From: Candidatus Poseidoniales archaeon
GTDB lineage: Archaea; Thermoplasmatota; Poseidoniia; Poseidoniales; Poseidoniaceae
Direction: 5' to 3'
Assembly (NCBI GenBank): GCA_009887135.1
Contig: QXYA01000112.1
Span: 1-58,627, forward strand
Length of the DNA: 58,627 nucleotides
Part shown: positions 27,984-53,300 of the stretch, piece after piece
Layout: each line of letters starts with the position of its first letter
Numbering within the stretch: position 1 is the stretch's first letter
The notes under the pieces: generated by a model
The model's database searches: none
What the model saw: only the letters and a program-made list of their open reading frames with translations
Told to the model about the DNA's origin: nothing
Position numbers and translations under genes: made by a program

Positions 27984-28277
27984 TATATCGCCTTCTTCTT
28001 CCTTTTCCTAGTAACATGATTGCCGCAAACAAACCCGTTGATTAGGCTATATGGGAGCAAATCGGTTAGCAGGATTATATCTATATCCGGCGAACTATTT
28101 AAACCCATGTATTCTTGATGGCATTTAGAGTAAACATGAATTATTCTTGTTTCGAAATCATATGCTCTGGCCAAATAAAAAATCAACTTGATTTTCCCCT
28201 GACGAATAAAAAATAACAAAATGAAGTGAGTTTCCTTTTATACCCTCGTGATTCTTGTAGAGAACTGGGGGAGAAAG

Positions 28278-34900: not shown

Positions 34901-36925
34901 GACGTCGTTCTAGATTATAGCGACCTTTTGACAACTTATCCCGATGAGTCCGAACGTCAAGTTGCTGAAACATGGTGTGCTTTATTGTATAAAATAGGCT
35001 CAGAATGTGGGCATGAACCAAGCGCAATGCTTGCTAAGATGAATGCCTTAGCCTCGCTTGAGAACAAAGGACCTCAAGCGACCTCTTCACCAACAAGTGG
35101 TGCCATCCAAATCATGACAATTCATGGGGCGAAGGGATTGCAGGCGCCCGTTGTTATTGTAACAGGATTGTTCGAAGCAGGTCGCCGAAGTTCAAGCAAT
35201 GATGCCCAAAAGAATGTCCTCATTACTCCTGACGTAATTGCAGGAAGAATACAACCTTGGAAATCTAAAGAGAAGCCGCTTGATGGTCTTTGGATGCTTG
35301 CTAATCAAATGAATAAGGCTCAGAACCTGGCTGAGTTGCGACGCCAATTCTATGTTGCTCTTACCAGAGTTCGTGATCGCCTTATCTTTGCAGGTTCTCC
35401 TTCAAAGACGAGTGCAATGTCAACAGAAGGCTTCATCCTGGCAACAGGAAATCTCTCTGGAAACAACATGGGGGATTTACTCTTGGACGGGCTGCGTTAC
35501 ATGGGAGTCGTATCGAATGTTGAACAGCCATGGAGTCTCGGAGGGGACGCACAAGGAGAGCGGTTGACCGATTACAAAGACATTGAACTCGTTCTCGACC
35601 CGATGGGCGTCTTTTCATCATCAGGACTTCCAACAGATTCAGTACATGGTATCAGGATTTATCATCATCCAAATTGTTTTACTCAACAAACACCTGTGTC
35701 AGTTCTAAGCGAATGGTTAGAAGTAGAATCCAATCTGAATTACCAAGTCAAAGAAGTATTGGAAAATGAAATTGTAACGATATCTCCATCCCTAAAAATG
35801 ACCGCCCACGGCCTAGATGCAGCGTATTCCTGCCGCAGACGATTCTGGCTAAATCATGTACGTGGTTGGCAAACGGAACCTTTCAACATCCAATCCAAGG
35901 CAAGGACTATTGCCAGCGAGGAGGAACTTAAGGACAGGACTGGAGGAGAAGATTATGATGGTGAATCCTATGTTGGTTGGCCTTCAGCAACGTCATTTGG
36001 TTCAATGTTCCACCGCCTCGTTGAGATTGGGCTTGCTAATCCAGCGACAATGCAATCCGAAGATTCACCACTTTCTTCCGAATGGTTGAATGGCCAAGAA
36101 AACCGCTTACTTGAAACGAAAGAAATTGATGATGCGATCACATCTGAATCTGAATGGCACAAACTTTCGTATCAAGAGCAACAGCAAACACGATCCCGAA
36201 TTATCGAACTTGCTGAGTTATTGTCGAATGGCTTGCTCGGAAAATTAACCGAAGGAAAAGAAGTAAATGGCCAATTTGTAGAAGGGTTACAAACCGAAGC
36301 CTCATTCTACTTCACGAGAGATGTAGAATTAACTGATGTTTATCGCAATCCAACCGCTGGTCTCTCTCAATCGATTGTCACTCAAATTGATAATGTAGCC
36401 ATCACCTTTGAAGGTCAGGCAGATATTGTCTTAGCAGGCAGCCAAAGGAACGAGAAATGGCTTCAAGTTGTTGATCTGAAAACCTCAGGTTCGAGAACGG
36501 ATGACTTGTCTGAACATCGCTTGCAAAAAGAAATTGAAGATTGGGATTCATCTTCGCCTCAAAATGCTGAAGAGGTTGAGATGTTACGAAACCATCGTCT
36601 CCAACTCACTCTCTATTCAATGGTGTTCCAGAAACAGGAGTCGTTCAAATCGGAAGATGAACGTCGCAATATCAAGCCACCAGCTCTCCTTATCAGTACG
36701 TCTGGAAGGCTTGTTGAAATGCCTCAGAAGATGTATGAGGAAGCACAGACTGAACTCACTTCACTCCTGGAATGGATTGCAGTGCTAACTGCAAATCAAA
36801 ATGATGTTAGCGAGCCGAAAAGGCTTCCAATGGATTCAATCGATACATGTAAGAAATGTCCGTTCTACAAAGGAGAACTTCGAATGTGTGGGCCTGACGG
36901 GACAGATTTGGGAATCAACAACTAA
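31952..36925 (+). CDS. addA: AddA/UvrD-family SF1A helicase fused to a RecB-family nuclease with four Cys
   Basis: All UvrD motifs are present: DAGAGTGKTT (I), FIIDEYQDTNPEH (II), IVGDMKQSIYRFRQAE (III), TTNFRTAPRLL (IV), IMTIHGAKGLQAPVVIV (V) and FYVALTRVRDRLIFAG (VI). The C-terminal nuclease has GQADIVL, QVVDLKTS and LQLTLYS. Cysteines occur at SCRRRFW (35831) and CKKCPFYKGELRMC (36848..36889). Confidence 0.85.
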   Translation: MIPFNRSQRLGLNLDQHIALDAGAGTGKTTVMAERYVQHLLSSEQRATCVLPSPLRNEPYGAGKVKSAKRDRTPLNEWKGLLPQEIVAITFTRKAAAELRSRIRSRIQSLRAEPVKKTDRLGIHDPRLRHQGDVSMLMSLLEAAPISTIDSFLGEVLAPHIDLVALHLSRDQLPDEQAPLLRTQALNAAWRIRNARDGFEAGLTQSCEEFIEARNRLAIRLGGQSSAQTVLTGLLESSLFVEESKRRLRMRSIRNEMPWDGSSPPNYLLIEDMILERCGHLIDGVVEEAYEYLNQWVEVFTKDGRHAMLVNPSGAPNENTRFNQLSQLARDPLPTTPISRLQWIHQVIVSACAPGQVKNTTPTILKSGGFHSQTMGGWHSGLVKWTNVSFPGITKKESKTITKGIQDEAKEAATLLRNRLHNPEDGRLLMMLSRASYALNPQRTFAFRDANENYDVTDIGTSPCRDPPQGNLRVSRELQVEVLDDLYTVHAGCKDLLRHLKAQEEAHDFDDVQLMVGDLLLVRCPEIVRHYYPPQAVQALDDLGEEAWTDEHIRRALQLMQGDEEKQNDLRRRYALLQQIRARYGAFIIDEYQDTNPEHARLLARLWGHRMDGSDETPDPLGPWDPTICIVGDMKQSIYRFRQAEVTVMRRMVASIRLANRLEEHEPRMEHIAQQGHGRDPRPVGAGGETGSFIQASEMASDESSATWDYVSFGINDFGTAIEDNIILQRQEGHIELTTNFRTAPRLLNTLNHIFDDTFSERHHQFPGDFHASAQPLHAGRETDREGVLEWLLPTQAQIDALPLDLEVGYHLFDSESANPRHLEHELIAARLDSLVRGHATKLWSSEEQDYVDIEPEEVISPEDVMILVHSRKHIPDLIKRLQDRGLPVLADKQGQLLQQPIVKPLLSVLTLLAKPSSRLAAHGLVRSPIVGATSLQIEEIFGEKDVENYWRHLSTYFSEAPIGHLLSILSSLIDKGALHEIFDVVLDYSDLLTTYPDESERQVAETWCALLYKIGSECGHEPSAMLAKMNALASLENKGPQATSSPTSGAIQIMTIHGAKGLQAPVVIVTGLFEAGRRSSSNDAQKNVLITPDVIAGRIQPWKSKEKPLDGLWMLANQMNKAQNLAELRRQFYVALTRVRDRLIFAGSPSKTSAMSTEGFILATGNLSGNNMGDLLLDGLRYMGVVSNVEQPWSLGGDAQGERLTDYKDIELVLDPMGVFSSSGLPTDSVHGIRIYHHPNCFTQQTPVSVLSEWLEVESNLNYQVKEVLENEIVTISPSLKMTAHGLDAAYSCRRRFWLNHVRGWQTEPFNIQSKARTIASEEELKDRTGGEDYDGESYVGWPSATSFGSMFHRLVEIGLANPATMQSEDSPLSSEWLNGQENRLLETKEIDDAITSESEWHKLSYQEQQQTRSRIIELAELLSNGLLGKLTEGKEVNGQFVEGLQTEASFYFTRDVELTDVYRNPTAGLSQSIVTQIDNVAITFEGQADIVLAGSQRNEKWLQVVDLKTSGSRTDDLSEHRLQKEIEDWDSSSPQNAEEVEMLRNHRLQLTLYSMVFQKQESFKSEDERRNIKPPALLISTSGRLVEMPQKMYEEAQTELTSLLEWIAVLTANQNDVSEPKRLPMDSIDTCKKCPFYKGELRMCGPDGTDLGINN

Positions 36926-37611: not shown

Positions 37612-38571
37612 ATGAGCATCAACACACAATCAATCGACGACGTCTTGTTTCCCAAGATTGAGGCATATTCAACCGGTATGCTAGCGGTTTCACAACGACA
37701 CACAATTGCTTGGGAATGCAGCGGAAATCCAGATGGGATTCCAGTCATTGTCATTCACGGTGGACCAGGCGGCGGAAGCCAACCATCGTACCGCCGGTAT
37801 TTTGATCCACAGAAATGGAACATCGTTCAATTTGACCAACGAGGCTGTGGCCAATCAACCCCATATGCAGACCTTGAAGAAAATACAACCATGCATCTGG
37901 TTTCAGATATTGAAGCTCTACGTGAACATTTTGGAATTGAAACGTGGCACGTCTTTGGAGGTTCATGGGGATCAACACTCGCCCTCATCTATGGCCAAAA
38001 CCATCCAGAACGTGTTCGTTCTTTCATATTGAGGGGGATCTTCATGTGTCGAAAATCTGAACTTCACTGGTTCTATCAAGATGGAGCAAGCCATGTCTTC
38101 CCTGATGCCTTTGAGCCTTATCACAATCACATTCCTGAAGGTGAACAAGATGCGCTTATTCCTGCATATTACAAGCGGCTAACAGACGAAGATGTAGACG
38201 TCAGGAGGGCCGCTGCTAAGGAATGGACACGTTGGGAAATGGCAACGAGTCGCCTCTTCCCAGATCCGTCCTATCTCGAAAAGGCAGAGGATCTTGACTT
38301 CGCAGTTGCATTCGCTCGAATAGAATGTCACTATTTCATCAATGGAATATTCGTTGAAGAAGCTTACATACTGAATAATTCGTCAATTATCGAACATATT
38401 CCTGCTGTAATTGTACAGGGCCGATACGACATGGTTTGTCCAGTGAAAAGTGCATGGGAATTGCACAAAGAATTGCCAGCTTCAGAACTTATCATTGTTC
38501 CAGATGCTGGTCATTCGATGGGTGAAGTTTCGATTGCAAAGTCCTTAGTGGATGCGACCAATACCATTTAG
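37612..38571 (+). CDS. pip: Proline iminopeptidase (prolyl aminopeptidase)
   Basis: VIHGGPGGG is present, along with the nucleophile elbow GGSWGSTLAL and the C-terminal DAGHS. Start set at ATG 37612. Confidence 0.9.
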   Translation: MSINTQSIDDVLFPKIEAYSTGMLAVSQRHTIAWECSGNPDGIPVIVIHGGPGGGSQPSYRRYFDPQKWNIVQFDQRGCGQSTPYADLEENTTMHLVSDIEALREHFGIETWHVFGGSWGSTLALIYGQNHPERVRSFILRGIFMCRKSELHWFYQDGASHVFPDAFEPYHNHIPEGEQDALIPAYYKRLTDEDVDVRRAAAKEWTRWEMATSRLFPDPSYLEKAEDLDFAVAFARIECHYFINGIFVEEAYILNNSSIIEHIPAVIVQGRYDMVCPVKSAWELHKELPASELIIVPDAGHSMGEVSIAKSLVDATNTI

Positions 38572-38641
38572 CCTCAATACATTGTCTAAGTGGGAAATCG
38601 TGAGTATATATGTGATAAGGGAGAAGGAAGGAGTTCTCATC

Positions 38642-40381
38642 ATGGCAAGAGATTCAGGTCATGGGACTGGTAATTCTTTTCGATTGTTTATCTACCTGGG
38701 AATGCTATTATTGATGCCTATGAGTGGTATAGCAGAAAACGACACAATCCCGTCCGTTGACTGCTCCACAATCTCGGTGGAAGCTGATTCTGAAACCGAC
38801 TGCACTATTGATCTAAGCGACTATCCTGGAGTGTCTTCAATTCGATATGAATATGTTCTTTCTTCTACGAATACAGAATCTGTTTCATCTGTGATCGACA
38901 CAGGAGCTGCTCATACTTGTGGTATACTTGAAAATGGTTCAGCAATGTGTTGGGGGCGAGATACATATGGCCAACTTGGAGATGGCGGAGAGGCTACAAA
39001 CAATATCAGGCCGAGCACGTATGTCGATGTGCCAAACGATGTCACGATTTCACAAATCTTTACTGGGCCCTACAGGACGTGTGTACTTCTTAGCAACGAT
39101 GGAACAAATTGCTGGGGATTTAACGAAAATGGTCAAAGCGGCGATGAATCCACAAATACCTACAAATCACCAACGAATCCTGTGAATTTCCCAGATGGAC
39201 GAGTTGCTAAATCAATAGGAATGGGGCATAAACACACATGTGCAATTTTAGATAACGACCAACTTGCTTGCTGGGGTGCTGATTTGTACGGTGCTCTAGG
39301 AAACGGGGAATCAACTTCTGAAGATGAATATGCGCCCGTCATCATATCCACTCCGGCAGATCGAACAACGGTTAAGGTTGAAGCAGGAGTAAGCCATACG
39401 TGTATTCTCATGGATGATGGAGGAATTATGTGTTGGGGTAGAGACAATGTGGGACAACTCGGCAATGGAGAGAGTAACCCAACCGCATACGCTCCTGCAT
39501 CAGATACCATATTGCCAGAAGGAAGAGTTGCAATGGATCTTTCTGTTGGTAATGAGCACGCATGTGCAATTTTAGACAACGGTTCAGCGGTTTGTTGGGG
39601 AATGAATAACTACGGGCAACTTGGAGATAATTCTACAACGAATGCCAAAAGCCCAACGTTTGTACATTTGCCAAATGGAACTAAAGCGACTAAGATCAGT
39701 TCTGGATCTGCACATACATGTGCAACAATTGACAATGGAAGTTTGTATTGTTGGGGGCACAACAAAAATAGTCGCTTAGGCATTGGTACGAGCGGAGGAG
39801 TTCACACAATCCCAATGTTTGTATCTGCAAATCAAAGCATCGTCGAAATTAGTGCTTCAGCGGAACACACATGTGTTCTTTCTGAGAACGGGTCAATCTC
39901 CTGTTGGGGGCGTAATAATTACGGTCAACTAGGATTGGGACATACCGGTGAACGAAATACCCCAAATCAATTAGATTGGAACATTGCTCCATTTTCATCC
40001 ACATATGGTCCTGCTCCAGTTGAGGCGTGGGAAGATGAACAACCCTTGAGAGGACGAGCAACTTCTGGCGAGAATAATGTTTGGACTGTTCGCCTGGAAG
40101 TTCCTGAAACGAGCGAATTAGGAACCTATGATTTGGAAATTACACTTCTGAAAATAGGGGGTGTACGATCGACTTTGATTATAGATGAAGCCCTTCAAAT
40201 TTCAGAGAAGACTGCGGCCGATGAATCGGACGAGCGAACCCTGATGTACATGGCGATAGGAGGAGGAGTGGTTGTATTGCTTTTATTGTCCTTATTATTC
40301 AGGAAAAAGGATACTGAATCACCAGCTCGTTCAGAAATAAAGAAACATAAGCCCCAAGAAGGGCCATCTCAGAAGTTCTAG
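38642..40381 (+). CDS. Secreted, C-terminally anchored RCC1-repeat (seven-bladed propeller) protein
   Basis: The N-terminus is hydrophobic (FRLFIYLGMLLLMPMSGIA). Seven repeats of the form H(T/A)C.(I/L)..(N/D)G...CWG.N.YGQLG are present. The C-terminal TM is MYMAIGGGVVVLLLLSLLF followed by RKK. Start set at ATG 38642, which follows GGAAGGAG. Confidence 0.8.
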   Translation: MARDSGHGTGNSFRLFIYLGMLLLMPMSGIAENDTIPSVDCSTISVEADSETDCTIDLSDYPGVSSIRYEYVLSSTNTESVSSVIDTGAAHTCGILENGSAMCWGRDTYGQLGDGGEATNNIRPSTYVDVPNDVTISQIFTGPYRTCVLLSNDGTNCWGFNENGQSGDESTNTYKSPTNPVNFPDGRVAKSIGMGHKHTCAILDNDQLACWGADLYGALGNGESTSEDEYAPVIISTPADRTTVKVEAGVSHTCILMDDGGIMCWGRDNVGQLGNGESNPTAYAPASDTILPEGRVAMDLSVGNEHACAILDNGSAVCWGMNNYGQLGDNSTTNAKSPTFVHLPNGTKATKISSGSAHTCATIDNGSLYCWGHNKNSRLGIGTSGGVHTIPMFVSANQSIVEISASAEHTCVLSENGSISCWGRNNYGQLGLGHTGERNTPNQLDWNIAPFSSTYGPAPVEAWEDEQPLRGRATSGENNVWTVRLEVPETSELGTYDLEITLLKIGGVRSTLIIDEALQISEKTAADESDERTLMYMAIGGGVVVLLLLSLLFRKKDTESPARSEIKKHKPQEGPSQKF

Positions 40382-41269: not shown

Positions 41270-42127
41270 TTGAAGTTGGGAGGCCTCGCTCAAGGAGGTC
41301 ATGCTCCTGTTGGTACATTTTTAGTGGCAGGCATTGCAATTCTTGTGGGTGGAATCTATCTTGATTCTCTGTACGGCCTAATGCCTTTAGCAGGAGTTCT
41401 TTGCCTCATGGTTTCAGTCTTCTTTGCCAATTTCTGGAGAGATCCCGACCGACCAATTCCACAAGAGAAAGGCATCTTGGTTTCACCTGCAGATGGACAC
41501 GTAATGTTCGCCCGCAGAGAGCGACCAACAGGCCGCCGCCCATCGAAAGAAGAACGAGAATCTTCATCGATTGAAACAGATGTTCACACAGGTGATTGGT
41601 TCCCACAACCATGCGAGAATCCACTGGAATTCACTACAGAACAACGATTTGAACCTGCAGATACGCCAGGCCCAGATGATGTTTGGAGAGTTGCAATCTT
41701 CATGTCTCCACTTGATGTTCACGTCAACCGTGTTCCTTTCAGTTCTACGATTGTTGCTATGGAGCACAGAACCGGGAAGGGGCGAAGGAGAGGTCCTTTT
41801 GCAGCAGCCTTCCGTAAAGAAAGCGAATACAATGAGCGAGTTCGAACAGTTCTGGAAGGCGAAGATGGGGGGCGAATCGAAGTCATGCAGATTTCAGGGG
41901 CACTCGCTAGAACGATTGTTCCATGGACAGGTATTGGAGATTCGCTTCGACGTGGCGAACGATACGGTATGATCCGATTAGGGAGCCGCGTTGATGTTCG
42001 TGTTCCAGCATCATTGTACACTCCGAATGTAATTTCAGCAGAGGATGGAGATTCTGCTTATCCTAAAGGCCAATTCATCAAAGCAGGATTAGATATTATC
42101 TTCAAACCAATAACGGAAGAAGAGTAA
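41270..42127 (+). CDS. psd: Phosphatidylserine (archaetidylserine) decarboxylase proenzyme
   Basis: FWRDPDRPIP and FMSPLDVHVNRVP are present, along with the self-cleavage-type motif RLGSRVDV. Membrane helices lie at the N-terminus. The start is a TTG and is uncertain. Confidence 0.85.
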   Translation: MKLGGLAQGGHAPVGTFLVAGIAILVGGIYLDSLYGLMPLAGVLCLMVSVFFANFWRDPDRPIPQEKGILVSPADGHVMFARRERPTGRRPSKEERESSSIETDVHTGDWFPQPCENPLEFTTEQRFEPADTPGPDDVWRVAIFMSPLDVHVNRVPFSSTIVAMEHRTGKGRRRGPFAAAFRKESEYNERVRTVLEGEDGGRIEVMQISGALARTIVPWTGIGDSLRRGERYGMIRLGSRVDVRVPASLYTPNVISAEDGDSAYPKGQFIKAGLDIIFKPITEEE

Positions 42128-42144: not shown

Positions 42145-43311
42145 ATGCTAGACCGTCATTCATCAACACTCCTCGGCGGAGATGAAAAGAGTCTGAAAAT
42201 TCACGACTTGGTCAAAGCTCCTGCAAATACTCCTTGGGCGAAAGAGCGTCAACAATCGTGGGATGCGAGTAAACCAGCTACTGTATATCACACTCCAGAA
42301 ATGACTGCTAATGGAGAGCCATGTACTGCTGTTACAGTTATCCTAAGAACGAAAGGATGCCATTGGTGGTGGTCTTCAGGATGTACATTCTGCGGGTATT
42401 TTAACGATACACGAGATGACGTAACAAGTGATGATCTTCACGCACAATGGAATGAAGCGAAGAAAAAGTACAACGATTTCGAAGGTCATTCGATGGTTAA
42501 AGTCTACACTTCAGGCTCCCTTCTTGAAGATCGTGAAATCCCGGTCGATTTCCAGGAAACTGTTCTAACCGACTGCCATACCCTTGGGAAAGAATTGATT
42601 GTAGAAAGCCGCACTGAACAACTAACAGACGAAAAGTTAGCCTGGGCATCTTCACTGAACCCATCATTTACTGTTGCTATTGGCTTGGAAGCATACGACG
42701 ACGAGGTCCTTCGCTTCCACGTCAACAAAGGATTTTCTGTCGCTTCTTGGGACAGAGCTGTCGAACGTCTGGAAAAATATAATTTGAGAATTAAAACATA
42801 TTTGATGTTCAAACCACCGTTCATGAGTGAAGCTGATGCATTGGACCACTGCATAAAGTGGATTGAATCCGTAGCAGAACAAAGCGATGAAATTTCAATA
42901 AATCCAATGAATATTCAACGAGGGACAGTCATTGATCGCCTTCACCGTCATCAAGAATACAGGCCTCCATGGCTGTGGTCATTGGTTGAACTCATCCAGA
43001 AGAGCCATCATATCGTCCATCCAAAGGGCGGAATGAATGGTGATGAAGACCAGATTTCCCGCCTTATTATTCATCCAACCGCTGGCGGTAAAATCAGAGG
43101 CTCCCACAACTGTGGCGAATGCGATCCTGAAGTCGTAGCGGCAATTGAGAGATATGCTGTTTCGGGCTCATTGGATGAATTCACAGGTCTTGATTGTGAA
43201 TGTAAATCACTCTGGAGCAAGGAATTAGAAAACGACCGAACAATCCCTGTTCCATTAGGAACTTCTCGACCGCGGAGAGGCTCGATTATCGAAATGCTCC
43301 GCTCATCTTAG
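42145..43311 (+). CDS. Radical-SAM-like Fe-S protein of the COG1244/TIGR01210 type (RaSEA-like, possible role in archaeosine synthesis)
   Basis: The cysteine cluster is GCHWWWSSGCTFCGYF (C-x8-C-x2-C). VYTSGSLLEDREIP and the later IGLEAYDDEVL fit my memory of this family. Functional assignment is by family only. Confidence 0.6.
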   Translation: MLDRHSSTLLGGDEKSLKIHDLVKAPANTPWAKERQQSWDASKPATVYHTPEMTANGEPCTAVTVILRTKGCHWWWSSGCTFCGYFNDTRDDVTSDDLHAQWNEAKKKYNDFEGHSMVKVYTSGSLLEDREIPVDFQETVLTDCHTLGKELIVESRTEQLTDEKLAWASSLNPSFTVAIGLEAYDDEVLRFHVNKGFSVASWDRAVERLEKYNLRIKTYLMFKPPFMSEADALDHCIKWIESVAEQSDEISINPMNIQRGTVIDRLHRHQEYRPPWLWSLVELIQKSHHIVHPKGGMNGDEDQISRLIIHPTAGGKIRGSHNCGECDPEVVAAIERYAVSGSLDEFTGLDCECKSLWSKELENDRTIPVPLGTSRPRRGSIIEMLRSS

Positions 43312-43413: not shown

Positions 43414-43686
43414 ATGTCGAACAGTACAGAACTCCCCGATGCAGTCATAGGAACTGCGGAACCATCGTCCAGTCGAATTATGTTGGTTTTACTCTCTGTA
43501 GTGGCCATTGGTATGTTCGGCCTCTTTAGTACAATCTTTGGATGGGACAACATTCCAGTCATAGGGGATATCGTTCCATTAATGTCAAATCTTGGCGGTT
43601 CGGGAATCTGGTATTATCTTCTTGGATTCATTATTGGAATTGGAGCGATTGCCTCCACATTAGCGGGAGAGGTAATCTCGAAGTAG
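43414..43686 (+). CDS. Small two-TM membrane protein
   Basis: Start set at ATG 43414 (MSNSTELPD). The helices are IMLVLLSVVAIGMFGLFSTIF and WYYLLGFIIGIGAIASTLA. It ends 9 nt before the next membrane-protein gene. Confidence 0.45.
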   Translation: MSNSTELPDAVIGTAEPSSSRIMLVLLSVVAIGMFGLFSTIFGWDNIPVIGDIVPLMSNLGGSGIWYYLLGFIIGIGAIASTLAGEVISK

Positions 43687-43695
43687 GTGATTTGA

Positions 43696-45660
43696 ATGGA
43701 AGCAGTATTTATCGCATTATTTTTCTTCTTTACCGTCGTTGGGTTTTCAACGTTCTATCTCCAGAAAGGAATTGGCACCATGGCCGATCCTATGCGCCAA
43801 TTTGGATTGTTCCTTCTCAACAAAGCACCAGCAGGTATTGTTGATTTGTTCAATGACGAAAAGGGCAGTGGAGCAAAGACTTGGATGAACCTTGGAATGA
43901 TTTGGCTGACTCTTGCAGCTATTGGAACATTCCTTTCCCTTTGGCATGATTATGATCCAGCCGCACTTGACTCTCTTGCGAGTATCGGATGGGCATATGA
44001 TGACGGCAGTGCCCTCGCCACATTTGTTAACGCAACTCTAATCACAGGTCTTTTCTCTATTCTTCTCGGTGGCGGTCTAGTTGCAGTTGCTCGAAGTGGC
44101 GCAGGTAAAATGGCCAGTGAGTCAAATGCGAGTCTGACTGCGCTTCTCTTCAGCGTACTCACTGCAGCAGCTCTTCTCCTTCCAACAATTCTCGGCCTTC
44201 TGGCTGACCTTAGCGCTGAAAATGAAACACTTCTCCAAGATCTGTTTATGCATTCTCTGCGGGCATTCATCATCATCGCAGTTATGATCAACGTTCTTCT
44301 TACAGTTGCTCAACGCAAGGGTGAGACTATTCAGGCGAGTAATTGGTTCGTCTTTATGGCTCTTGCATCCTTCATCTTCGGTTCACAATTCCGATTCTTT
44401 GGTGAATTAGCCGACTCTACACAAGTTGTTTGGCTTGGTGAAAGAATGACTCAATCTTGGGTTATGATTTCTCTATTCTTTGCAGTTGCATATCATCTTG
44501 TTCCACGTGCGGCAAGCCGTCCAATATGGTCTGATTCAATGACAAAGGCCAGCATGCTCCTTCTCTTCTTTACGCTTCCACCGTTCATGATGTCCTCTGC
44601 AGACGCAGGTACGCTACTCGAGAATCTCGGTGCTATTCTAATGACGCTTGCACTTCTGCCTATTTTCGCAGGTTCAGTCAATATCATCATGACTGCAGCA
44701 GGAAACGCCACTGGCATAATTGCTCGACCTGGGGCTATGGCAGCAACTCTCGCAATGATTGCATTCCCAATCTTTGCCATCGGAGGCTACTTCACTTCCC
44801 TGGATGTTTTCATCGGGCTGGGAACACTCAATGACATGGCTACAACCGTCGATATCGGATTCCTATGGACTGTAGGTGGACTGATGGCAGTTGCTTGTAT
44901 CAGTGAATCATATCCACTTGCTGCAAACCGTCAATTGGCCTCTTCTTCCTCTGCATCTCTAACCACACTCTTCGTCGCCTTTGGTGGCATCACTTCGACC
45001 GTTGCAAAGATCATGGGAGACTTCACCGAAAAGGCACTTCTCGAATCTGGCAGTGAAGACATTGTAATGACCGATGGCGGATTTAGTTTAACGGCAGCAG
45101 TTCTATTCTATGTCGCCTCGATTGGTATCATTCTCCTTTTCATGAATCTCATTCGAACTTCTGTCGGTGGAATGAAGACCGATACGACCGCATCCACAAC
45201 CTCTGACATTGCTCGTTACTCTCTTCAGACAGGTGAATCCTCAATCCGTAAACTCTTGCAACGAGGCGTCGGTGTCGATACTGTTCTCGTAGTTGGTGCG
45301 GATGTTGAAGATGACGGAGGGGTCGAAATAATCGAAGTTTCCTCAACACTTCACAATGATGAAATCTCAGAGTTCCCGGTCGTCAAAACCGAACTTGAGA
45401 TGCTTTCAGACTATTTGGAAAAGAAGAACATGACCATCTTCGAATTCTTTAGATCCATTGATTTGGACGATTCAGGAAACATCGATGGATTTGAATTACA
45501 ACAGGCTCTCATCAATTCTAACATTGCAGACCTTCCTCCATGGGATGTGATTAAGCTCATGGAAATGATCGACCTCGATGGTGATGGTAGAATCAACCTT
45601 CCTGAATTAGATATTGCAATTGCCCGAGTTCGACCAAACCCATTCTCTGAAGAAGAGTGA
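43696..45660 (+). CDS. Polytopic membrane protein resembling a ligand-less heme-copper-oxidase/NOR subunit I, fused to a C-terminal EF-hand pair
   Basis: At least ten hydrophobic helices are present. The segment AVAYHLVPRAASRPIWSDSM...LLPIFAGSVNIIMTAAG...LNDMATTVDIGFLWTVGG parallels, from memory, CcoN MYYFVPKQAERPVYSYRL...LLAPSWGGMINGMMTLSG...HYTDWTIGHVHAGALG, but without the histidines. Two canonical EF loops are present: DLDDSGNIDGFE (45460..45495) and DLDGDGRINLPE (45571..45606). Confidence 0.6.
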   Translation: MEAVFIALFFFFTVVGFSTFYLQKGIGTMADPMRQFGLFLLNKAPAGIVDLFNDEKGSGAKTWMNLGMIWLTLAAIGTFLSLWHDYDPAALDSLASIGWAYDDGSALATFVNATLITGLFSILLGGGLVAVARSGAGKMASESNASLTALLFSVLTAAALLLPTILGLLADLSAENETLLQDLFMHSLRAFIIIAVMINVLLTVAQRKGETIQASNWFVFMALASFIFGSQFRFFGELADSTQVVWLGERMTQSWVMISLFFAVAYHLVPRAASRPIWSDSMTKASMLLLFFTLPPFMMSSADAGTLLENLGAILMTLALLPIFAGSVNIIMTAAGNATGIIARPGAMAATLAMIAFPIFAIGGYFTSLDVFIGLGTLNDMATTVDIGFLWTVGGLMAVACISESYPLAANRQLASSSSASLTTLFVAFGGITSTVAKIMGDFTEKALLESGSEDIVMTDGGFSLTAAVLFYVASIGIILLFMNLIRTSVGGMKTDTTASTTSDIARYSLQTGESSIRKLLQRGVGVDTVLVVGADVEDDGGVEIIEVSSTLHNDEISEFPVVKTELEMLSDYLEKKNMTIFEFFRSIDLDDSGNIDGFELQQALINSNIADLPPWDVIKLMEMIDLDGDGRINLPELDIAIARVRPNPFSEEE

Positions 45661-46955
45661 TTCTAGGCGGTCTATCCGTGCGGATTGGATTGGTGGGAAA
45701 ACCCAATGTTGGGAAGTCTACTTTCTTTGCAGCATCTACACTTATTCCCGTTGATATTGCGAATTATCCGTTCTGTACGATAGACCCCAACGTCGGGATA
45801 TCCTTCATCCCGAGTCGACTTCCTTGCCCTTGTGGTGAATTGCGTGCTCGTTTAGAAGAGGATGGGAGAGTTGAATTGTCCTCTGAACGAGGCGGAAGTA
45901 TTTGCACACCACGCACAGGTTCCTGTGAACATCATCAACGATACGTTCCTTGTATGCTTGTTGATGTTGCAGGGCTTGTTCCTGGAGCGAGTGAGGGGAG
46001 AGGAAGAGGCAACGCATTCCTGTCAGACCTAGCAGAATGTCATGCCCTGATTCAGGTCATTGATGTTGCAGGTACAACTGATGCAGAAGGAAACCCGATA
46101 GGAGCAGGTAAATCGAAACAAGAAGCCATTGAGCAAGCCCTTGCCGAAGTTTCTTTCTTAACAAACGAATTAGACGCTTGGATTCTTGGCCTTCTCAAGG
46201 ATGGTTGGGTACGGGGTGCTCGGAAAATACAAGCAGAAGGCGTGAAAGGATTCGTTCAATTCCTTCACGATCGACTCTCAGGTTTAGGAGCAACACAGAG
46301 CATTTGCCAACGCTCGTTTGAAGCCTTCTTTGCACAACATGGAGATATGACATCACCATGGGATTGGTCAGATGACATTCTAAGGATTCTAGCATCCTCT
46401 GTTCGTATTCACCTCTTCCCACTTTTCATTGCAGGAAACAAAGCAGATCTCGCCCCAGAAGGCGTAATCGAACATCTGTCTGAAGTGATACCCCAATTTA
46501 TTCCGTGTTCAGCAGAGACTGAGTTTGCACTACGAAAGGCGAATGAAGCAGGCTTCATCGATTACACATCAGGTGAATCAACCTTCACAATTTTAGATCC
46601 AAATGCTCTCAACGAAGCACAAGCAAAAGGGCTAGGATTGCTTCAACAGAGATTGACAAATATGGGCGATACTGGGCTTAACAAATTACTCGATAAGGTT
46701 CTGTTCGATGAACTCGATCGAATTGTCGTTTATCCTGTCCAAGATGAGTCACATTGGACTGATGGGGATGGAAATGTATTACCAGACGCTTTAGTTGTTG
46801 AATCGAGTATACAAGCAAAAGAGGTTGCGTACAAGGTACACAGTGATCTTGGAGACGGATTCATCAAAGGTGTTGATGGACGAACACGTCGAATTGTTGG
46901 AGCAGAACACGAATTGTCTGATGGAGACGTTCTGCGCATCCATTCAAAATCTTGA
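45657..46955 (+). CDS. ychF: YchF/OLA1-like Obg-family GTPase/ATPase with a C-terminal TGS domain
   Basis: G1 is GLVGKPNVGKSTFF. ANYPFCTIDPNVG is present. G3 is VDVAGLV and G4 is GNKADL. The C-terminal DGDVLRIHS is TGS-like. A Cys-containing insertion lies after G2. The GTGA overlaps the upstream stop. Confidence 0.85.
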   Translation: MILGGLSVRIGLVGKPNVGKSTFFAASTLIPVDIANYPFCTIDPNVGISFIPSRLPCPCGELRARLEEDGRVELSSERGGSICTPRTGSCEHHQRYVPCMLVDVAGLVPGASEGRGRGNAFLSDLAECHALIQVIDVAGTTDAEGNPIGAGKSKQEAIEQALAEVSFLTNELDAWILGLLKDGWVRGARKIQAEGVKGFVQFLHDRLSGLGATQSICQRSFEAFFAQHGDMTSPWDWSDDILRILASSVRIHLFPLFIAGNKADLAPEGVIEHLSEVIPQFIPCSAETEFALRKANEAGFIDYTSGESTFTILDPNALNEAQAKGLGLLQQRLTNMGDTGLNKLLDKVLFDELDRIVVYPVQDESHWTDGDGNVLPDALVVESSIQAKEVAYKVHSDLGDGFIKGVDGRTRRIVGAEHELSDGDVLRIHSKS

Positions 46956-46956
46956 A

Positions 46957-47343
46957 TCAGTGGCCTTCGGGTCGCTCAAAATCAGGAGTCAACCTTGCAA
47001 GTGTGCTCGTGTACCTTGCCCCACTTGTAATGAAGAGTACGAGAGATGCAAGCGTGAGTAGTGTAAGCATGATCAGCATGTACATGCCCCACGGGCTTAT
47101 ACTGCGAACAGTTGTGATGTAAAGTCCCCAGAGAACTGTGAGGTATAGGAAAGGTCGATATCGGCGAGAGACTGTACTCAATCGTGCTGATTTGAGCGTA
47201 TCATCGTAGAGATTTACAGCGTCTTCCTTACTGACCATACCGTGTTCAACTCCACATCGAGTGCAGACTTGCGTATTTGGTCCATTTCCATGGATGAAGA
47301 ACTCACGAGGATAGGTTGCAGAACATAGGCGACAGGTTGGCAT
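46957..47343 (-). CDS. Zinc-ribbon membrane protein
   Basis: The N-terminus is CRLCSATYPREFFIHGNGPNTQVCTRCG (CxxC...CxxC). Two hydrophobic helices follow (FLYLTVLWGLYITTV, MYMLIMLTLLTLASLVLFI). Confidence 0.5.
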   Translation of the reverse strand: MPTCRLCSATYPREFFIHGNGPNTQVCTRCGVEHGMVSKEDAVNLYDDTLKSARLSTVSRRYRPFLYLTVLWGLYITTVRSISPWGMYMLIMLTLLTLASLVLFITSGARYTSTLARLTPDFERPEGH

Positions 47344-50383: not shown

Positions 50384-53300
50384 TCAAAGGAGATCGTCTA
50401 GGAATGATGTATCAATACCTGGGCTTGAAGCGTTTTGTTTGGTCCCAATATCCAAATCACTCAGTAAATCATTGTCAATAGGCGTTCGTACAGGGTTCAT
50501 CACTGGCATTGGAGGAATGTACTCTTGTCGATCAAGCGGTTGATTTTGGATACGATCTGCAGCTTGGAAGAGTGAACCAGTTTCAACAGGTGGTGGTGGC
50601 GGAACACCTGCATCTGGTGGTGAATTCCACGCGTCATCTTCTCCAAGTCCCCAAGTAGCAGTTTGAATTTCCCACTGCTTATCTTTTTGTGACTTCTTTC
50701 CTCTTCCACGAACGATAGCTACGAGTAGAATCAACGAGACAAAGACAAGTCCTGCTGCAAGCAGGTTTGGTGTGGTTAGGAGAGATTGGAAGTCTGTTCC
50801 ATCATTTGAATCATCACTGTCTACAACTCCATTTTCAACTGCATTAATCATCAAAGGATCCACAGATTGACGGACTTGATTGTCATCGAATGTTGTAACT
50901 GAAACGTACCAAGCGGACTTGTTGTTGAGTTCAGTAAACACTGTTGAGGTGATAACGAATGAGTTCGCTGTTAGCGTGTCGCCTACGAATGTTGCATCCG
51001 AGATGTCCATAAAGTCTTCATTGGATATATGGATTTGATACCCTTCAACACCGAAATCATTTGTGTGGTTCCATGTTACTAAGATGTCTGTTTCTGCAAC
51101 CCACGCTAAGGTTATCCCATCGATTGTCGGAAGGTAATTGCCCGGATCTGTAATCCCATCATCAACCGATTGTGATGAGACTACAGTCAGATCAGTCTTG
51201 TGTGCATTAGCAGAAGAATCAACAGCTACTACAGCAACCCAAGTTTCCTGTCCTGGAAGTACCGGGAGATCACCAGCAATAATCGTTAGAATAAGTGGGA
51301 ATTCCGGGAGTCTGTCAAGAGTCATAATTGGTGCATTTGGCCCATCAGAGCCAACGCCAACGCTTGTGAACGACCAGGATGCGGCATAGACCTCGTACTG
51401 ATAGATATCACTTGCAGTTGATAGTCCGAATTCAAGATCGAGTGCTGAACCATCATCCATCGGTCGGTCGCCGAGTACAATCTCATCAAGACGTGGAGGA
51501 GGTGTTGTATCCTCTAGGTTGTTGATTGGAATAACACTCGCAGATAATAATGAATCAACATAGACGTTTCCTTGTAAATCATGGACGGTGACGGTTACGA
51601 AGAGTTCGATTCCTGGTTGAATCAATTGTGGCGTATCTGCAGATGAGAATTCGTTTGTTTGGGAAGCATCTCCATACAGGGCAGTATTCAATGTTAATTC
51701 AATTGGATTCTTATCCTCGTCAATCCATTGCTTGTCGATAGAGATACAGCCACAGGTTGCAGGGTCGTCTCCATAGGCGTTCCATACGTAGGAAATATCA
51801 TCAACAGGTTTGTCGGCTGCCCAGACGATATAATGGCTGAAATCATCAGCAGAAGAAATTGACCAAACCACATCGATTGCAGTTCCATCATCATTTGCAT
51901 GATCGAATGCTTGAATATTCTCAATTCGAGAAGGAGGCATAGAGGCTCCATCTGAATTATCGAGTGGTGTTGCTTGAACGATGCTTACATCGTTTAATTC
52001 TGCATTCAACCATGTATCATATGCTACGACACCTATGTAATATTCAAGCCCGTTAACGAGTGGTAAATCGTCTAATTCCGATACAATCGTTGTGTTCTCT
52101 TGACAAGAATTGACTACTGTTGCTGGTGAGAATCCAGCGACTGAAGTAGGCTGCGTTACGAAGACAACCCCTGTAATCATGTAGACCGTGTAGAAAGCAC
52201 AATCCCCAGCATCGCTTGGGTCCCATCCGACAGTAATTCTTCCACCTTCATCTTCAGGTGTGTCTATTGCCCAGACATTTTCGAGTTTAGCAGGAGCTTG
52301 TCCATCATCGATACCACCGGTTGGAACGACTGGGCCAATGATTGTCGCATTCATGATGTCTTCTTGGCCACTAATATCGACACATGTGAATCCAAGCCAA
52401 TACGGCTTTCCAGCATCAAGATTTAGAATGGTAAGATTTCCTTCTGTTGGCATCACAGTGTAAGCAACAGACAAACCTAGGATATCGTTCATGGCTTGTG
52501 TCGATGTGTAGATTCGGGTTTCGAGAAGATCGAGTGCTGAACATCGAGCCCATTCAGTTTCTAAGTCGCCTTCTACACCACCATCAAGCGGTTGAGCAGA
52601 AGCCCAAATTGGTGGGGTCGGTACTTCGTTGCTGGTTGTAACTGGCCCAGCAATTTGACTTGGTAATCCGAAGCGTCCATTATCGTATTCAACGACCACA
52701 AGGGCATAATATTCAACACCGTCGACCAAAGGTACACCGTTGGCTGTTGTTACGTCAACCTTGAGTCGGCTGTGAAGTGATTCTGTCTTGTCGATGATTC
52801 TTCCAGCAAGATCGATATCGGTTGGTAGCGAGCCCCACGGACCTTCGTTAACATAGACAAGATAACGATTGAAGTCAGGATCATGGACAAGGGACCATTC
52901 GACGGTTAATGCTTCACCGCCATCATCAGGACGATCGTAAATATCTGCAATTTCAACAGGTGTATCCTTTCGTATCCAATCATAGACAAGTCGAACTTCG
53001 ATTGTTCCGTTACTTGGTGCTACGAGTTTAATCGGAACAATTCGAGTTCCGTTGATCAATTGGCCATTATTGATGGCTAATTGGAGGCTATTTTCCACTC
53101 CAGTTGTGTTATCAAGTTCCAGTACAGCATCGTATCTGAGTGTACTTGATTGAGCCCATACTGCCGCATTTGAGACAGGAGAAGTCATCACGAGAGGAAC
53201 TGTTTGGAACAAGAGTCCGTGCACACCTGCTACGCCAACAGAACTGTTGAGAGTTACAGGATTGTCTTGGGTAACAAGATCGATTTGAAGTCCTGGATGA

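What the first reader, a model, noticed from the sequence alone, without database searches (positions are those of the whole stretch)
43414..45660. Histidine-less heme-copper-oxidase/NOR-like membrane protein fused to two EF-hands, preceded by a small two-TM partner
The 654-aa protein has at least ten TM helices. A central stretch (about 44458..44925) tracks, from my memory, helices 7-10 of cbb3-type CcoN and NorB. AYHLVPRAASRPIWSDSM corresponds to MYYFVPKQAERPVYSYRL. LLPIFAGSVNIIMTAAG corresponds to LLAPSWGGMINGMMTLSG. TTVDIGFLWTVGG corresponds to WTIGHVHAGALG. ATFVNATLITG corresponds to PLHTNAVIFAFG. At each position where the oxidase has a heme or CuB histidine ligand, this protein has a non-ligand residue, and only three His occur in the whole membrane part. 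The C-terminus carries two textbook EF-hand loops (DLDDSGNIDGFE and DLDGDGRINLPE). A redox-dead oxidase scaffold coupled to Ca-binding modules would be a repurposed channel or sensor rather than a respiratory enzyme. A 90-aa two-TM gene sits 9 nt upstream, like a small accessory subunit.
Basis: partly seen in the sequence, partly recalled or inferred. Interest (0 to 1): 0.7.

Follow-up and report, generated by a model that had tools for sequence, protein, structure and literature searches.

The report
Histidine-less cytochrome-oxidase-like membrane protein with EF-hands
A marine archaeon (Poseidoniales) carries a membrane protein that has the fold of the catalytic subunit of cbb3-type cytochrome oxidase but has lost every haem- and copper-binding histidine. 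It carries a calcium-binding tail on the cytoplasmic side and always sits next to a small two-helix partner gene, so a respiratory enzyme scaffold appears to have been reused for a non-respiratory job.

Summary
ORF 43696..45660 (654 aa) is real. It has 13 predicted TM helices and only three His in the membrane part (H84, H186, H267).

- **Fold.** Two AlphaFold models (pLDDT 73.7 and 80.1) match cbb3 CcoN best (Foldseek E about 1e-9, TM 0.77-0.78). cNOR, ba3, bo3 and aa3 subunit I follow.
- **Sequence.** A family profile aligns to three real CcoN sequences with hhalign probability 99.6% (E 1.4e-23, 474 columns). Divergent family members pass Pfam COX1's gathering score.
- **Ligands.** All six canonical His positions hold non-ligand, non-conserved residues or gaps. 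The cross-linked Tyr is also gone.
- **Tail.** Two canonical EF-hand loops (589-600, 626-637) pass Pfam thresholds. Charge bias (11 K/R against 0) puts them in the cytoplasm.
- **Partner.** The 90-aa two-TM gene lies 9-14 nt upstream in 78 of 79 species-representative loci, including in family members without EF-hands.
- **Distribution.** The family was found only in marine Thermoplasmatota MAGs (138 GTDB species) and is annotated 'hypothetical'.

It is most likely a cofactor-free pseudo-oxidase that acts as a membrane scaffold or ion path with a Ca2+-responsive cytoplasmic tail; the function is inferred, not shown. The published HCO survey I read calls the active-site histidines completely conserved outside gNOR. 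I rate this a new variant of a known kind.

The parts
43414..43686 (+). Small partner gene: 90 aa, two TM helices (N-in/C-in by charge), conserved extracellular loop (GW.n.P..G..VP) and GSGIWYY motif, no Cys and no haem-c motif
   Evidence: ORF and sequence. Homologous gene 9-14 nt upstream of the large gene in L001, L002, L007-L010 and in 78 of 79 GTDB loci. No Pfam or NCBIfam hit. No similarity to CcoO/Q/P.
43696..45660 (+). Large gene: 654-aa His-less HCO subunit-I-like protein with a C-terminal EF-hand pair
43696..45168 (+). Membrane domain, residues 1-491: extra N-terminal TM0 (2-24), conserved cytoplasmic segment 25-57, then the 12-helix HCO core (TM1 58-86 to TM12 about 456-491)
   Evidence: AF2 helices. 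Foldseek best match CcoN, TM 0.76-0.78. hhalign 99.6% to CcoN. K/R 11 inside against 0 outside.
44023..44025 (+). F110, at the position of the TM2 His ligand of low-spin haem b
   Evidence: hhalign mapping. The position is variable in the family (top residue F, 7 of 28).
44443..44445 (+). R250, at the position of the TM6 CuB His ligand
   Evidence: Not conserved (R in 10 of 28).
44584..44589 (+). F297-M298, at the position of the TM7 CuB His-His pair. The cross-linked Tyr falls in an alignment gap.
44830..44886 (+). TM10 segment residues 379-397 (NDMATTVDIGFLWTVGGLM), where CcoN has the HxH ligands of haem b3 and haem b. It contains no His. D386 (D, E, H or R in the wider family) sits in or next to the ligand register.
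45208..45294 (+). Family-wide cytoplasmic signature directly after TM12 (residues about 505-533: G513, I517, R518, L520, G524, D528, T529; 'G.(S/T)(S/T)IR.LL..G.G.DT')
   Evidence: Near-invariant in 28 diverse members, including those without EF-hands. Low to moderate pLDDT.
45391..45630 (+). EF-hand pair (residues 566-645). Ca loops at 589-600 (nt 45460..45495) and 626-637 (nt 45571..45606).
   Evidence: Pfam EF-hand_7, _1, _5 and _6 above cut-off. PDB calmodulin/CDPK matches. Loop residues invariant in Poseidoniaceae homologues. pLDDT 75-85.
45657..46955 (+). Downstream Ygr210/YchF-like GTPase (MMR_HSR1 + YGR210-like_G4 + TGS). Its GTG start overlaps the stop of the large gene by 4 nt. It is a conserved neighbour, and a functional link is not shown.
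42145..43311 (+). Upstream RaSEA-type archaeosine radical-SAM gene. It is a conserved neighbour and is probably only syntenic.
   Evidence: NCBIfam TIGR01210, 288 bits. Synteny.

Best explanation
The large gene encodes a cofactor-free descendant of a C-family (cbb3 CcoN-like) heme-copper oxidase subunit I.

Shown:
- It keeps the 12-helix fold and the structural core residues W70, R133, T203, W217, W246, P276, S279, P322, N329, T333, G374, P407 and G430.
- It has lost all six His ligands for haem b, haem b3 and CuB, and the cross-linked Tyr.
- It has no CcoO or CcoP cytochrome-c partner next to it in any locus whose genes I read.
- It is always encoded directly after a small two-TM protein.

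Inferred:
- It cannot reduce O2 or NO.
- Together with the small two-TM protein it forms a membrane module whose working surface is the cytoplasmic face. The family-specific invariant residues cluster there (segment 25-57, the LASE loop, the RPxWS loop and the post-TM12 'SIR.LL..G...DT' motif), while the former catalytic helices TM6, 7 and 10 are poorly conserved.
- In Poseidoniaceae a cytoplasmic EF-hand pair was added. In about a quarter of species a C-terminal SAP (helix-extension-helix) motif was added too. These make the tail responsive to cytoplasmic Ca2+ and able to tether a partner (protein or nucleic acid).
- The most likely mode of action is a non-redox, Ca2+-modulated membrane scaffold or sensor. 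It possibly keeps a relic polar path along TM6-TM8. By my recollection of the cbb3 literature, N329 and T333 (invariant or nearly so) and Y266 (16 of 28) sit at positions lining the cbb3 proton channel.
For: Fold: Foldseek top hits are all CcoN (E 9e-10 to 6e-8, TM 0.71-0.78 on the target), then NorB, ba3, bo3 and aa3. This holds for two independent models (models).

Sequence homology:
- hhalign of the family against three CcoN sequences gives probability 99.6%, E 1.4e-23, 474 columns.
- Single CcoN targets give 96-97.5%, while CyoB and qNOR are not significant.
- Pfam COX1 is above its gathering score in P0133 and P0141.
- A profile of divergent members finds real NorB and cbb3 proteins in a 5.8-billion-protein database.

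Ligand loss. There is no His in residues 268-552.

No cytochrome-c partner: neighbourhoods.

Partner gene.

Topology: 11 K/R in the predicted inner loops against 0 in the outer loops.

Conservation shifted to the cytoplasmic face.

EF-hands.

Purifying selection and wide retention: 138 GTDB species, 49-95% identity, single syntenic copy.

Context: MGII is reported to respire through low-affinity cytochrome c oxidase, not cbb3 (PMC6336850).
Against: - No experiment or expression data exist, so the function is inferred only from what is conserved and what is lost.
- The post-TM12 motif and the linker are modelled with low confidence, so the 'docking surface' idea is not structurally supported.
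- I had no model coordinates, so I could not check whether the haem cavities are filled or open.
- Conserved synteny with housekeeping genes (RaSEA, GTPase) could be inertia and gives no functional clue.
- EF-hand-less members show that Ca2+ sensing is not the core function.
- The proton-channel residue assignments are from my memory of the cbb3 literature and could not be confirmed in the paper library.
Confidence: 0.6

Rival explanations
1. Ca2+-gated ion channel or transporter. The emptied oxidase scaffold conducts H+, Ca2+ or another ion or small molecule through the former proton or gas channels or haem cavities. The cytoplasmic EF-hand pair gates it.
For: Polar residues are retained at positions I recall as the cbb3 cytoplasmic proton path (N329 28/28, T333 26/28, Y266 16/28, T367 18/28). 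A conserved charged or polar residue sits in TM10 at the old ligand site (D386; D, E, H or R across the family). The EF-hands sit on the cytoplasmic side of a polytopic protein. Seawater Ca2+ is high, so influx sensing or extrusion is plausible (general knowledge).
Against: Other channel positions are not retained (T215 to I/L, E323 to I/V, Tyr251 to a gap). N329, T333, P322 and W217 are also core residues of CcoN, so they may be purely structural. The former catalytic helices are the least conserved. Members without EF-hands exist. No pore could be examined because I had no coordinates.
Confidence: 0.25
2. It is still a redox enzyme (oxidase or NOR) that binds haem or metal through non-His ligands such as Met, Tyr, Asp or Glu.
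For: M298 and M299 lie near the CuB site and D386 lies in TM10. Published HCO variants tolerate single ligand swaps: gNOR has Asp for His, and His/Met or His/Lys can ligate the low-spin haem (PMC11214002).
Against: The residues at all six ligand positions are hydrophobic or gaps, and they vary even within the family (top-residue frequency 7-19 of 28). There is no electron-donor subunit (CcoO, CcoP, CuA or a quinol site) in any locus. The partner has no Cys.
Confidence: 0.05
3. Membrane-to-nucleoid or membrane-to-ribosome tether. The oxidase-like domain is only an anchor. The working parts are the cytoplasmic tail (EF-hands plus the SAP/HeH motif) and the translationally coupled ribosome-associated GTPase.
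For: The SAP motif is present in 19 of 75 species and in divergent members that lack EF-hands (P0141, P0151). The gene overlaps the Ygr210/YchF-like GTPase gene by 4 nt, and synteny with it and with a tRNA-modification gene is conserved.
Against: The window protein itself has no SAP motif. A 13-TM domain conserved at 49-95% identity, with a dedicated partner, is far more than an anchor needs. In L010 and L011 the GTPase is separated from it by an opposite-strand gene.
Confidence: 0.1
4. The resemblance to HCO is a chance similarity between helical bundles, or the gene is a decaying relic without function.
For: Pfam COX1 does not hit the window protein itself, and neither the protein nor a profile of its close relatives finds any PDB sequence.
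Against: hhalign gives E 1.4e-23 over 474 columns. COX1 is above its gathering score in family members. Every listed Foldseek hit is HCO subunit I. The intact ORF is retained in 138 species with strongly conserved motifs.
Confidence: 0.01

Closest known systems
CcoN, catalytic subunit I of cbb3-type (C-family) cytochrome c oxidase (e.g. PDB 3mk7, 8smr, 9g83)
   Same: Twelve-helix core fold (TM-score 0.76-0.78 on CcoN). Best profile match (hhalign 99.6%). Shared motifs: Y(Y/H)xVPxxxxRPxxS after TM6, PxxxGxxNxxxT in TM8, RKxxxxxxxNWF at TM4/5, and the FY pair in TM12. N- and C-termini are cytoplasmic.
   Different: All six His ligands and the cross-linked Tyr are absent. There are no CcoO, CcoP or CcoQ genes nearby. 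It has an extra N-terminal TM helix, a different small partner (two TM), a conserved post-TM12 motif, and EF-hand (with or without SAP) tails. Conservation is lowest where CcoN is most conserved (TM6, 7, 10).
cNOR NorB and qNOR (nitric oxide reductases of the HCO superfamily)
   Same: Same fold. These are second-tier Foldseek hits (E 4e-5 to 1e-4). A profile of divergent family members finds NorB-annotated proteins.
   Different: No His ligands. The FeB-site Glu residues were not examined. The single-sequence hhalign to qNOR is not significant.
gNOR and the other recently described HCO families (eNOR, bNOR, sNOR, nNOR; Murali et al. 2024, PMC11214002)
   Same: They are divergent HCO families with altered active sites, discovered from metagenomes.
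   Different: Those families change one ligand at most. [quoted passage not shown] Here all of them are gone.
Unnamed Acidimicrobiia/soil 'cbb3-type subunit I' proteins found here (P0223 family, 76 clusters)
   Same: They are also C-family-like and pass Pfam COX1 (P0223 itself scores 80.9 bits), and they also lack all six His ligands. Their hhalign score to the Poseidoniales family is similar to that of real CcoN (97.6%).
   Different: They keep an operon with FixO/CcoO and a second cytochrome c, next to a Rieske/cytochrome b cluster. They have no EF-hands and no two-TM partner, and they occur in bacteria. This is probably an independent loss of ligands.
EF-hand pair proteins (calmodulin-like domains)
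   Same: Two canonical 12-residue loops (D-x-D-x-S/D-G-x-I-D/N-x-x-E) in a helix-loop-helix pair. Pfam scores are above cut-off.
   Different: There is a single pair fused to the cytoplasmic end of a 13-TM archaeal protein. Ca2+ binding is not demonstrated.

Membership tests
Heme-copper oxidoreductase superfamily, subunit I (Pfam COX1 PF00115) | 12-TM subunit I fold | tested here: met
   Two AF2 models (pLDDT 73.7 and 80.1). Every listed Foldseek PDB hit is HCO subunit I; the best is CcoN (E about 1e-9, TM 0.77-0.78).
Heme-copper oxidoreductase superfamily, subunit I (Pfam COX1 PF00115) | Significant sequence or profile similarity to COX1 | tested here: met
   hhalign 99.6%, E 1.4e-23. COX1 is above its gathering score in family members P0133 (43.2 bits) and P0141 (42.0 bits, cut-off 34.8). 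The window protein itself gets no direct COX1 hit.
Heme-copper oxidoreductase superfamily, subunit I (Pfam COX1 PF00115) | Six invariant His: two for the low-spin haem, one for the high-spin haem, three for CuB/FeB | tested here: not met
   The positions map to F110, R250, F297, M298, and a gap or V385/I387. None is conserved in the family, and there is no His in residues 268-552.
Heme-copper oxidoreductase superfamily, subunit I (Pfam COX1 PF00115) | Bound haems and Cu/Fe; O2 or NO reduction | not testable with these tools
   Needs biochemistry.
C-family oxygen reductase (cbb3) CcoN | Closest to CcoN among HCO families | tested here: met
   Foldseek ranks 1-7 are CcoN. hhalign to CcoN is 96-97.5%, against 0.6% for CyoB and 0.3% for qNOR.
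C-family oxygen reductase (cbb3) CcoN | His-Tyr cross-link (Tyr in TM7) | tested here: not met
   The Tyr position falls in an alignment gap and the His partner is R250.
C-family oxygen reductase (cbb3) CcoN | Adjacent ccoO/ccoP cytochrome-c subunit genes | tested here: not met
   No FixO or cytochrome-c gene appears among the called genes of any locus I read: L001-L003 and L007-L011, and the window's flanking genes.
C-family oxygen reductase (cbb3) CcoN | Cytoplasmic proton-channel residues (P. stutzeri numbering T215, Y223, S240, H243, Y251, N289, Y317; recalled from memory) | tested here: inconclusive
   N329 (28/28), T333 (26/28) and Y266 (16/28) are retained. The other positions are replaced or gapped. 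The residue list could not be verified in the paper library.
EF-hand domain pair (PF13499) | Two helix-loop-helix motifs with canonical 12-residue loops | tested here: met
   EF-hand_7 scores 36.7 bits (cut-off 30), and EF-hand_1, _5 and _6 are above cut-off. Loop residues are invariant in homologues. pLDDT is about 80.
EF-hand domain pair (PF13499) | Ca2+ binding | not testable with these tools
   Needs ITC, 45Ca overlay or a structure.
SAP/HeH motif (PF02037) | C-terminal SAP motif | tested here: not met
   Absent from the window protein. Present in 19 of 75 related species and in P0133, P0136, P0141, P0150 and P0151.

The most novel reading that the evidence does not exclude
An entire order of abundant ocean archaea keeps a haem-free, copper-free cytochrome-oxidase scaffold plus a dedicated two-TM partner as a non-redox membrane device. 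In Poseidoniaceae it would be wired to cytoplasmic Ca2+ (a Ca2+-gated ion path or a Ca2+-controlled membrane tether). Together with the independently His-less 'cbb3' homologues of Acidimicrobiia, this would be, as far as I could find, the first documented pseudoenzyme branch of the HCO superfamily, and evidence that the fold has a cofactor-independent function.
Probability: 0.35. Interest if true: 0.85.

Novelty: new variant of a known kind. Interest (0 to 1): 0.72.

Why it matters
Heme-copper oxidases are defined by their haem and copper centre. The broadest published survey I could read says the active-site histidines are completely conserved in every family except gNOR, which swaps one of them (PMC11214002).

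A family that keeps the fold under purifying selection across at least 138 species of one of the ocean's most abundant archaeal groups, while discarding every ligand, shows that the scaffold can be reused for something other than respiration.

It also gives a concrete, testable case of cytoplasmic EF-hand Ca2+ sensing attached to a membrane protein in archaea, where Ca2+ signalling is barely explored.

In practice, such proteins (and the Acidimicrobiia family auto-named 'cbb3-type cytochrome c oxidase subunit I') can be miscounted as high-affinity oxidases in metagenomic surveys of respiration.

Tried and rejected
- **Direct sequence searches of the membrane domain.** Pfam, NCBIfam and PDB sequences gave nothing for the window protein, and a profile of close relatives against PDB sequences also gave nothing. 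Homology only appeared through structure prediction, profile-profile alignment and divergent family members.
- **Small partner against cbb3 subunits.** hhalign of the small partner against CcoO, CcoQ and the CcoP N-terminus found no similarity. I dropped the idea that it is a relic of a cbb3 subunit.
- **Relation to A-type oxidase or qNOR.** Single-sequence hhalign was not significant.
- **Literature.** Searches for His-less HCO homologues, for a reference listing the cbb3 proton-channel residues, and for Poseidoniales EF-hand proteins found no description of this family. The only related remark is that Poseidoniales-specific gene modules contain Ca-binding domains (PMC9258230).
- **Frameshift or fusion artefact.** Rejected, because the fusion is universal in Poseidoniaceae loci.
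- **Function from gene neighbours.** The neighbours (RaSEA, phosphatidylserine decarboxylase, Ygr210-like GTPase, PabAB) look like conserved housekeeping synteny. They gave no convincing functional link beyond the 4-nt overlap with the GTPase gene.
- **C-terminal domain model.** I considered a second AF2 job on the C-terminal domain alone, but only 14 non-redundant sequences were available.
- **Correction.** My first hand count of ligand equivalents (E249, M298/M299) was off by one. The scripted mapping corrected it.
Full report
**1. What is in the sequence**

The window is from a marine Group II archaeon. The first 500 residues of the protein are 100% identical to contig JADHSC010000004.1 of 'Candidatus Poseidoniaceae archaeon BS30m-G39'.

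ORF 43696..45660 (+) encodes 654 aa. ORF 43414..43686 (+) encodes 90 aa and stops 9 nt before the large ORF's ATG, with a GGTGA between them. The two ORFs are in the same frame, separated by TAG GTG ATT TGA.

The large protein has His only at 84, 186, 267 and 553, and one Cys.

Pfam finds only the EF-hand pair at 580-641: EF-hand_7 at 36.7 bits against a cut-off of 30, with EF-hand_1, _5 and _6 also above cut-off. PDB sequence search finds only calmodulin and CDPK chains over the same stretch. The loops are DLDDSGNIDGFE (589-600) and DLDGDGRINLPE (626-637), with canonical residues at positions 1, 3, 5, 9 and 12.

The membrane part has no direct Pfam, NCBIfam or PDB-sequence hit.

**2. Is the membrane part an HCO subunit I?**

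Yes. Three independent lines agree.

(a) Structure.
- An AlphaFold model from 14 homologues reached pLDDT 73.7 and pTM 0.69.
- A second model from 37 homologues reached pLDDT 80.1 and pTM 0.74, with all five models between 76.8 and 80.1 and the TM helices mostly 85-95.
- Both show an N-terminal extra helix plus a 12-helix core.
- In both Foldseek searches against the PDB, ranks 1-7 are CcoN of cbb3 oxidases (E 9e-10 to 6e-8, TM-score 0.71-0.78 normalised to CcoN, about 480 aligned columns). Then come cNOR NorB, ba3, bo3, aa3 and qNOR. Every listed hit is HCO subunit I.

(b) Profile-profile alignment. I fetched real CcoN genes from plasmids (Rhizobium L004, Alloyangia L005, a second C-type gene of Ralstonia L006).
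- hhalign of a 28-sequence family profile (membrane part only) against the three CcoN sequences gives probability 99.6%, E 1.4e-23, 474 aligned columns.
- Against single sequences, CcoN gives 96-97.5% (E 4e-9 to 7e-12). E. coli CyoB and Acaryochloris qNOR are not significant.
- The affinity is therefore specifically to the C family.

(c) Transitive sequence evidence.
- An exhaustive HMM search of 1.84 billion representative proteins with the membrane-domain profile found only 123 representatives.
- The divergent full-length members P0133 and P0141 pass Pfam COX1's gathering score (43.2 and 42.0 bits against 34.8).
- A profile of the divergent members retrieves proteins with Pfam COX1 domains, some of them annotated NorB or cbb3 subunit I, from a 5.8-billion-protein database (best P0248, E 3e-10).

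**3. Are the ligands gone?**

Yes. The scripted mapping through the hhalign alignment gives:

| CcoN ligand | Window residue | Conservation in the family |
|---|---|---|
| TM2 His (low-spin haem b) | F110 | top residue in 7 of 28 |
| TM6 His (CuB) | R250 | 10 of 28 |
| TM7 His-His (CuB) | F297, M298 | F in 19 of 28; F (not M) in 8 of 28 |
| Cross-linked Tyr | alignment gap | - |
| TM10 HxH (haem b3 and haem b) | 10-residue deletion | - |

In an ungapped local alignment to the Ralstonia protein, the TM10 HxH falls on V385 and I387 instead.

Whatever the register, residues 268-552 contain no His. H267, invariant in Poseidoniaceae, sits at the second Tyr of CcoN's MYYFVPK and is not a ligand position.

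Across 28 diverse members, none has the canonical set. A few deep-branching members keep one lone His: TM2 in P0133 and P0141, TM10 in P0146 and P0160. This looks like a remnant of stepwise loss.

The fourth (TM10) has an uncertain register.

**4. What is conserved instead**

Residues shared with CcoN and near-invariant in the family are W70, R133, T203, W217, W246, P276, S279, P322, N329, T333, G374, P407 and G430. I read these as core packing positions of the fold.

Family-specific near-invariant residues cluster in these places:
- the cytoplasmic segment 25-57 (G25, F39, K43, A44, D50, G57)
- TM1 (W63, G67, W70, F79, W83)
- the outer loop 87-104
- the inner 'LASE' loop (S141, E142)
- a motif directly after TM12 (G513, I517, R518, L520, G524, D528, T529)

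The former catalytic helices TM6, 7 and 10 carry only 1-2 near-invariant positions each. Constraint has moved from the catalytic core to the cytoplasmic face and TM1.

**5. Topology**

Using the modelled helices, loops predicted to be cytoplasmic hold 11 K/R and loops predicted to be outside hold none, with 8 and 9 acidic residues respectively. This agrees with the known orientation of HCO subunit I, where both ends of the 12-helix core are cytoplasmic (established knowledge).

The EF-hand pair, and the SAP motif where present, are therefore cytoplasmic. The extra TM0 puts the N-terminus outside.

**6. The small partner**

A homologous 72-105-aa two-TM protein is encoded 9-14 nt upstream of the large gene in every locus examined.
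- This includes members without EF-hands (P0160, 564 aa) and with SAP only (P0141).
- In 80 GTDB species-representative loci it is adjacent in 78 of 79 evaluable cases. The exception has a broken large ORF.
- It has no Cys, no family hit, and no similarity to CcoO, CcoQ or CcoP.
- The pair is a conserved two-gene module. Physical association is inferred, not shown.

**7. Distribution and architecture**

- 138 GTDB species representatives encode a relative. All 80 that were listed are marine Poseidoniales or Thermoplasmatota MAGs apart from two contigs filed under bacterial bin names, and they include the original MG-II genome CM001443.
- Source names are 'hypothetical protein'.
- All 75 loci with complete C-termini carry the EF-hand pair. 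19 add a C-terminal SAP motif, and a few carry four EF-hand loops (P0043 has a duplicated EF-hand region).
- Deeper-branching members have SAP only, or neither.
- The EF-hands are therefore a lineage-specific addition to an older core made of the partner, the HCO-like domain and the post-TM12 motif.

**8. Neighbourhood**

- Upstream: a phosphatidylserine decarboxylase and a RaSEA archaeosine radical-SAM gene.
- Downstream: a Ygr210/YchF-like GTPase whose GTG start overlaps the large gene's stop by 4 nt. Then come a small Zn-ribbon membrane protein and PabAB on the other strand.
- This order is conserved across the family. In L010 and L011, however, an opposite-strand gene separates the GTPase from the pair.
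- No cytochrome c, CuA or copper or haem chaperone gene lies among the genes flanking the module, in the window or in the related loci I read.
- MGII archaea are reported to respire with low-affinity cytochrome c oxidase, some with cytochrome bd. That paper does not mention cbb3 (PMC6336850).

**9. How it most likely works**

Shown:
- HCO C-family fold
- total loss of cofactor ligands
- cytoplasmic canonical EF-hand pair
- obligate gene pairing with a two-TM protein
- strong purifying selection

Inferred: the protein cannot hold the bis-His haem b or the haem b3-CuB centre, so it is not an oxidase or NOR. With its partner it forms a non-redox membrane module whose conserved cytoplasmic face and tail are the working surface. 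In Poseidoniaceae, Ca2+ binding to the EF-hand pair would change the tail's conformation or partners.

Whether the membrane domain merely anchors and scaffolds, or still conducts something, is open. N329 and T333, and less strictly Y266 and T367, occupy positions that I recall as lining the cbb3 cytoplasmic proton channel. I could not verify that list in the paper library, and the other positions are replaced.

I put the scaffold/sensor reading at about 0.6. The rivals are in their own section: a Ca2+-gated ion path at about 0.25, a membrane tether at about 0.1, and a redox enzyme with unusual ligands at about 0.05.

**10. Comparison with what is known, and novelty**

The closest characterised family is cbb3 CcoN. 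This protein shares its fold and core motifs but fails the defining ligand, Tyr cross-link and partner-subunit tests. It is a relative, not a member in the functional sense.

Murali et al. [quoted passage not shown] A family without any of them lies outside the described diversity.

Méheust et al. 2022 (PMC9258230) noted Poseidoniales-specific gene modules with Ca-binding domains but did not describe this protein. I found no paper describing it.

I rate it a new variant of a known kind.

**11. Side finding that bears on generality**

The profile search also pulled in P0223. Its family has 76 clusters, from a soil metagenome and bacterial MAGs (one member is named Acidimicrobiia), and several members are auto-named 'cbb3-type cytochrome c oxidase subunit I'.
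- It lacks all six His as well (commonest pattern A-A-A-Q-V-Y).
- It still sits in an operon with FixO/CcoO and another cytochrome c, next to a Rieske/cytochrome b cluster.
- P0229 is a CcoN-FixO fusion that keeps only the two low-spin haem ligands.

Ligand-free or ligand-poor C-family scaffolds therefore recur. This supports the idea that the fold has uses beyond the binuclear centre, and it warns against counting such genes as oxidases.

Noticed in passing
L094:5001-6461 and L095:5001-6524 (proteins P0223, P0304; family P0279-P0353): A second, unrelated lineage of fully His-less C-family subunit-I homologues (76 clusters, from a soil metagenome and bacterial MAGs, one named Acidimicrobiia). 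They pass Pfam COX1 and several are auto-named 'cbb3-type cytochrome c oxidase subunit I'. The six ligand positions are mostly A-A-A-Q-V-Y. They still sit in an operon with FixO/CcoO and a second cytochrome c, divergent from a Rieske/cytochrome b/ferredoxin/cytochrome c cluster.
   Followed up: partly
protein P0229 (752 aa): A CcoN-FixO fusion protein that keeps only the two His of the low-spin haem (TM2 and the second TM10 His). The three CuB His and the haem b3 His are replaced (R, R, G and R).
   Followed up: partly
window 45657..45660: The stop codon of the HCO-like gene overlaps the GTG start of the Ygr210/YchF-like GTPase gene by 4 nt (GTGA), which suggests translational coupling. In other species the gap is 13-50 nt, and in L010 and L011 an opposite-strand gene intervenes.
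   Followed up: partly
window 43684..43698: The small and large ORFs are in the same reading frame, separated only by TAG GTG ATT TGA before the ATG.
   Followed up: no
window 38552..40381 (+): A 609-aa RCC1-repeat (beta-propeller) protein (PF25390, 234 bits; six RCC1 repeats) in an archaeal genome. It is absent from the syntenic position in the related loci L001 and L002.
   Followed up: no
window 28248..31955 and 31952..36925 (+): An overlapping pair of very large genes (1235 and 1657 aa) resembling an AddAB-type helicase-nuclease: a PD-(D/E)XK nuclease, then UvrD helicase plus PD-(D/E)XK.
   Followed up: no
window 50384..58624 (-) and 6767..11059 (+): Giant ORFs. The 2746-aa one has no Pfam hit at E up to 1e-5 and is conserved in synteny (2779-2786 aa in L001 and L002). 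The 1430-aa one has only a marginal FG-GAP repeat hit.
   Followed up: no
window 41270..42127 and 43696..45660 (C-termini): Among 36 long ORFs in the window, only the phosphatidylserine decarboxylase and the HCO-like protein end in 'EEE'. Many family members from other species also end in EE or EEE (some with CDRC(E/D)EE(E)). This may be a C-terminal signal, or it may be chance.
   Followed up: partly
window 46957..47343 (-): A 128-aa protein with an N-terminal CxxC...CxxC zinc-ribbon-like motif and hydrophobic segments, with no family hit. A gene of the same size sits at the same syntenic position in L001, L002 and L007.
   Followed up: no
homologues P0043, P0044 and locus L072: Some Poseidoniaceae orthologues carry four EF-hand loops (a duplicated pair) and/or a C-terminal SAP/HeH motif. 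Divergent members (P0141, P0151) have SAP without EF-hands. The cytoplasmic tail is therefore modular.
   Followed up: partly
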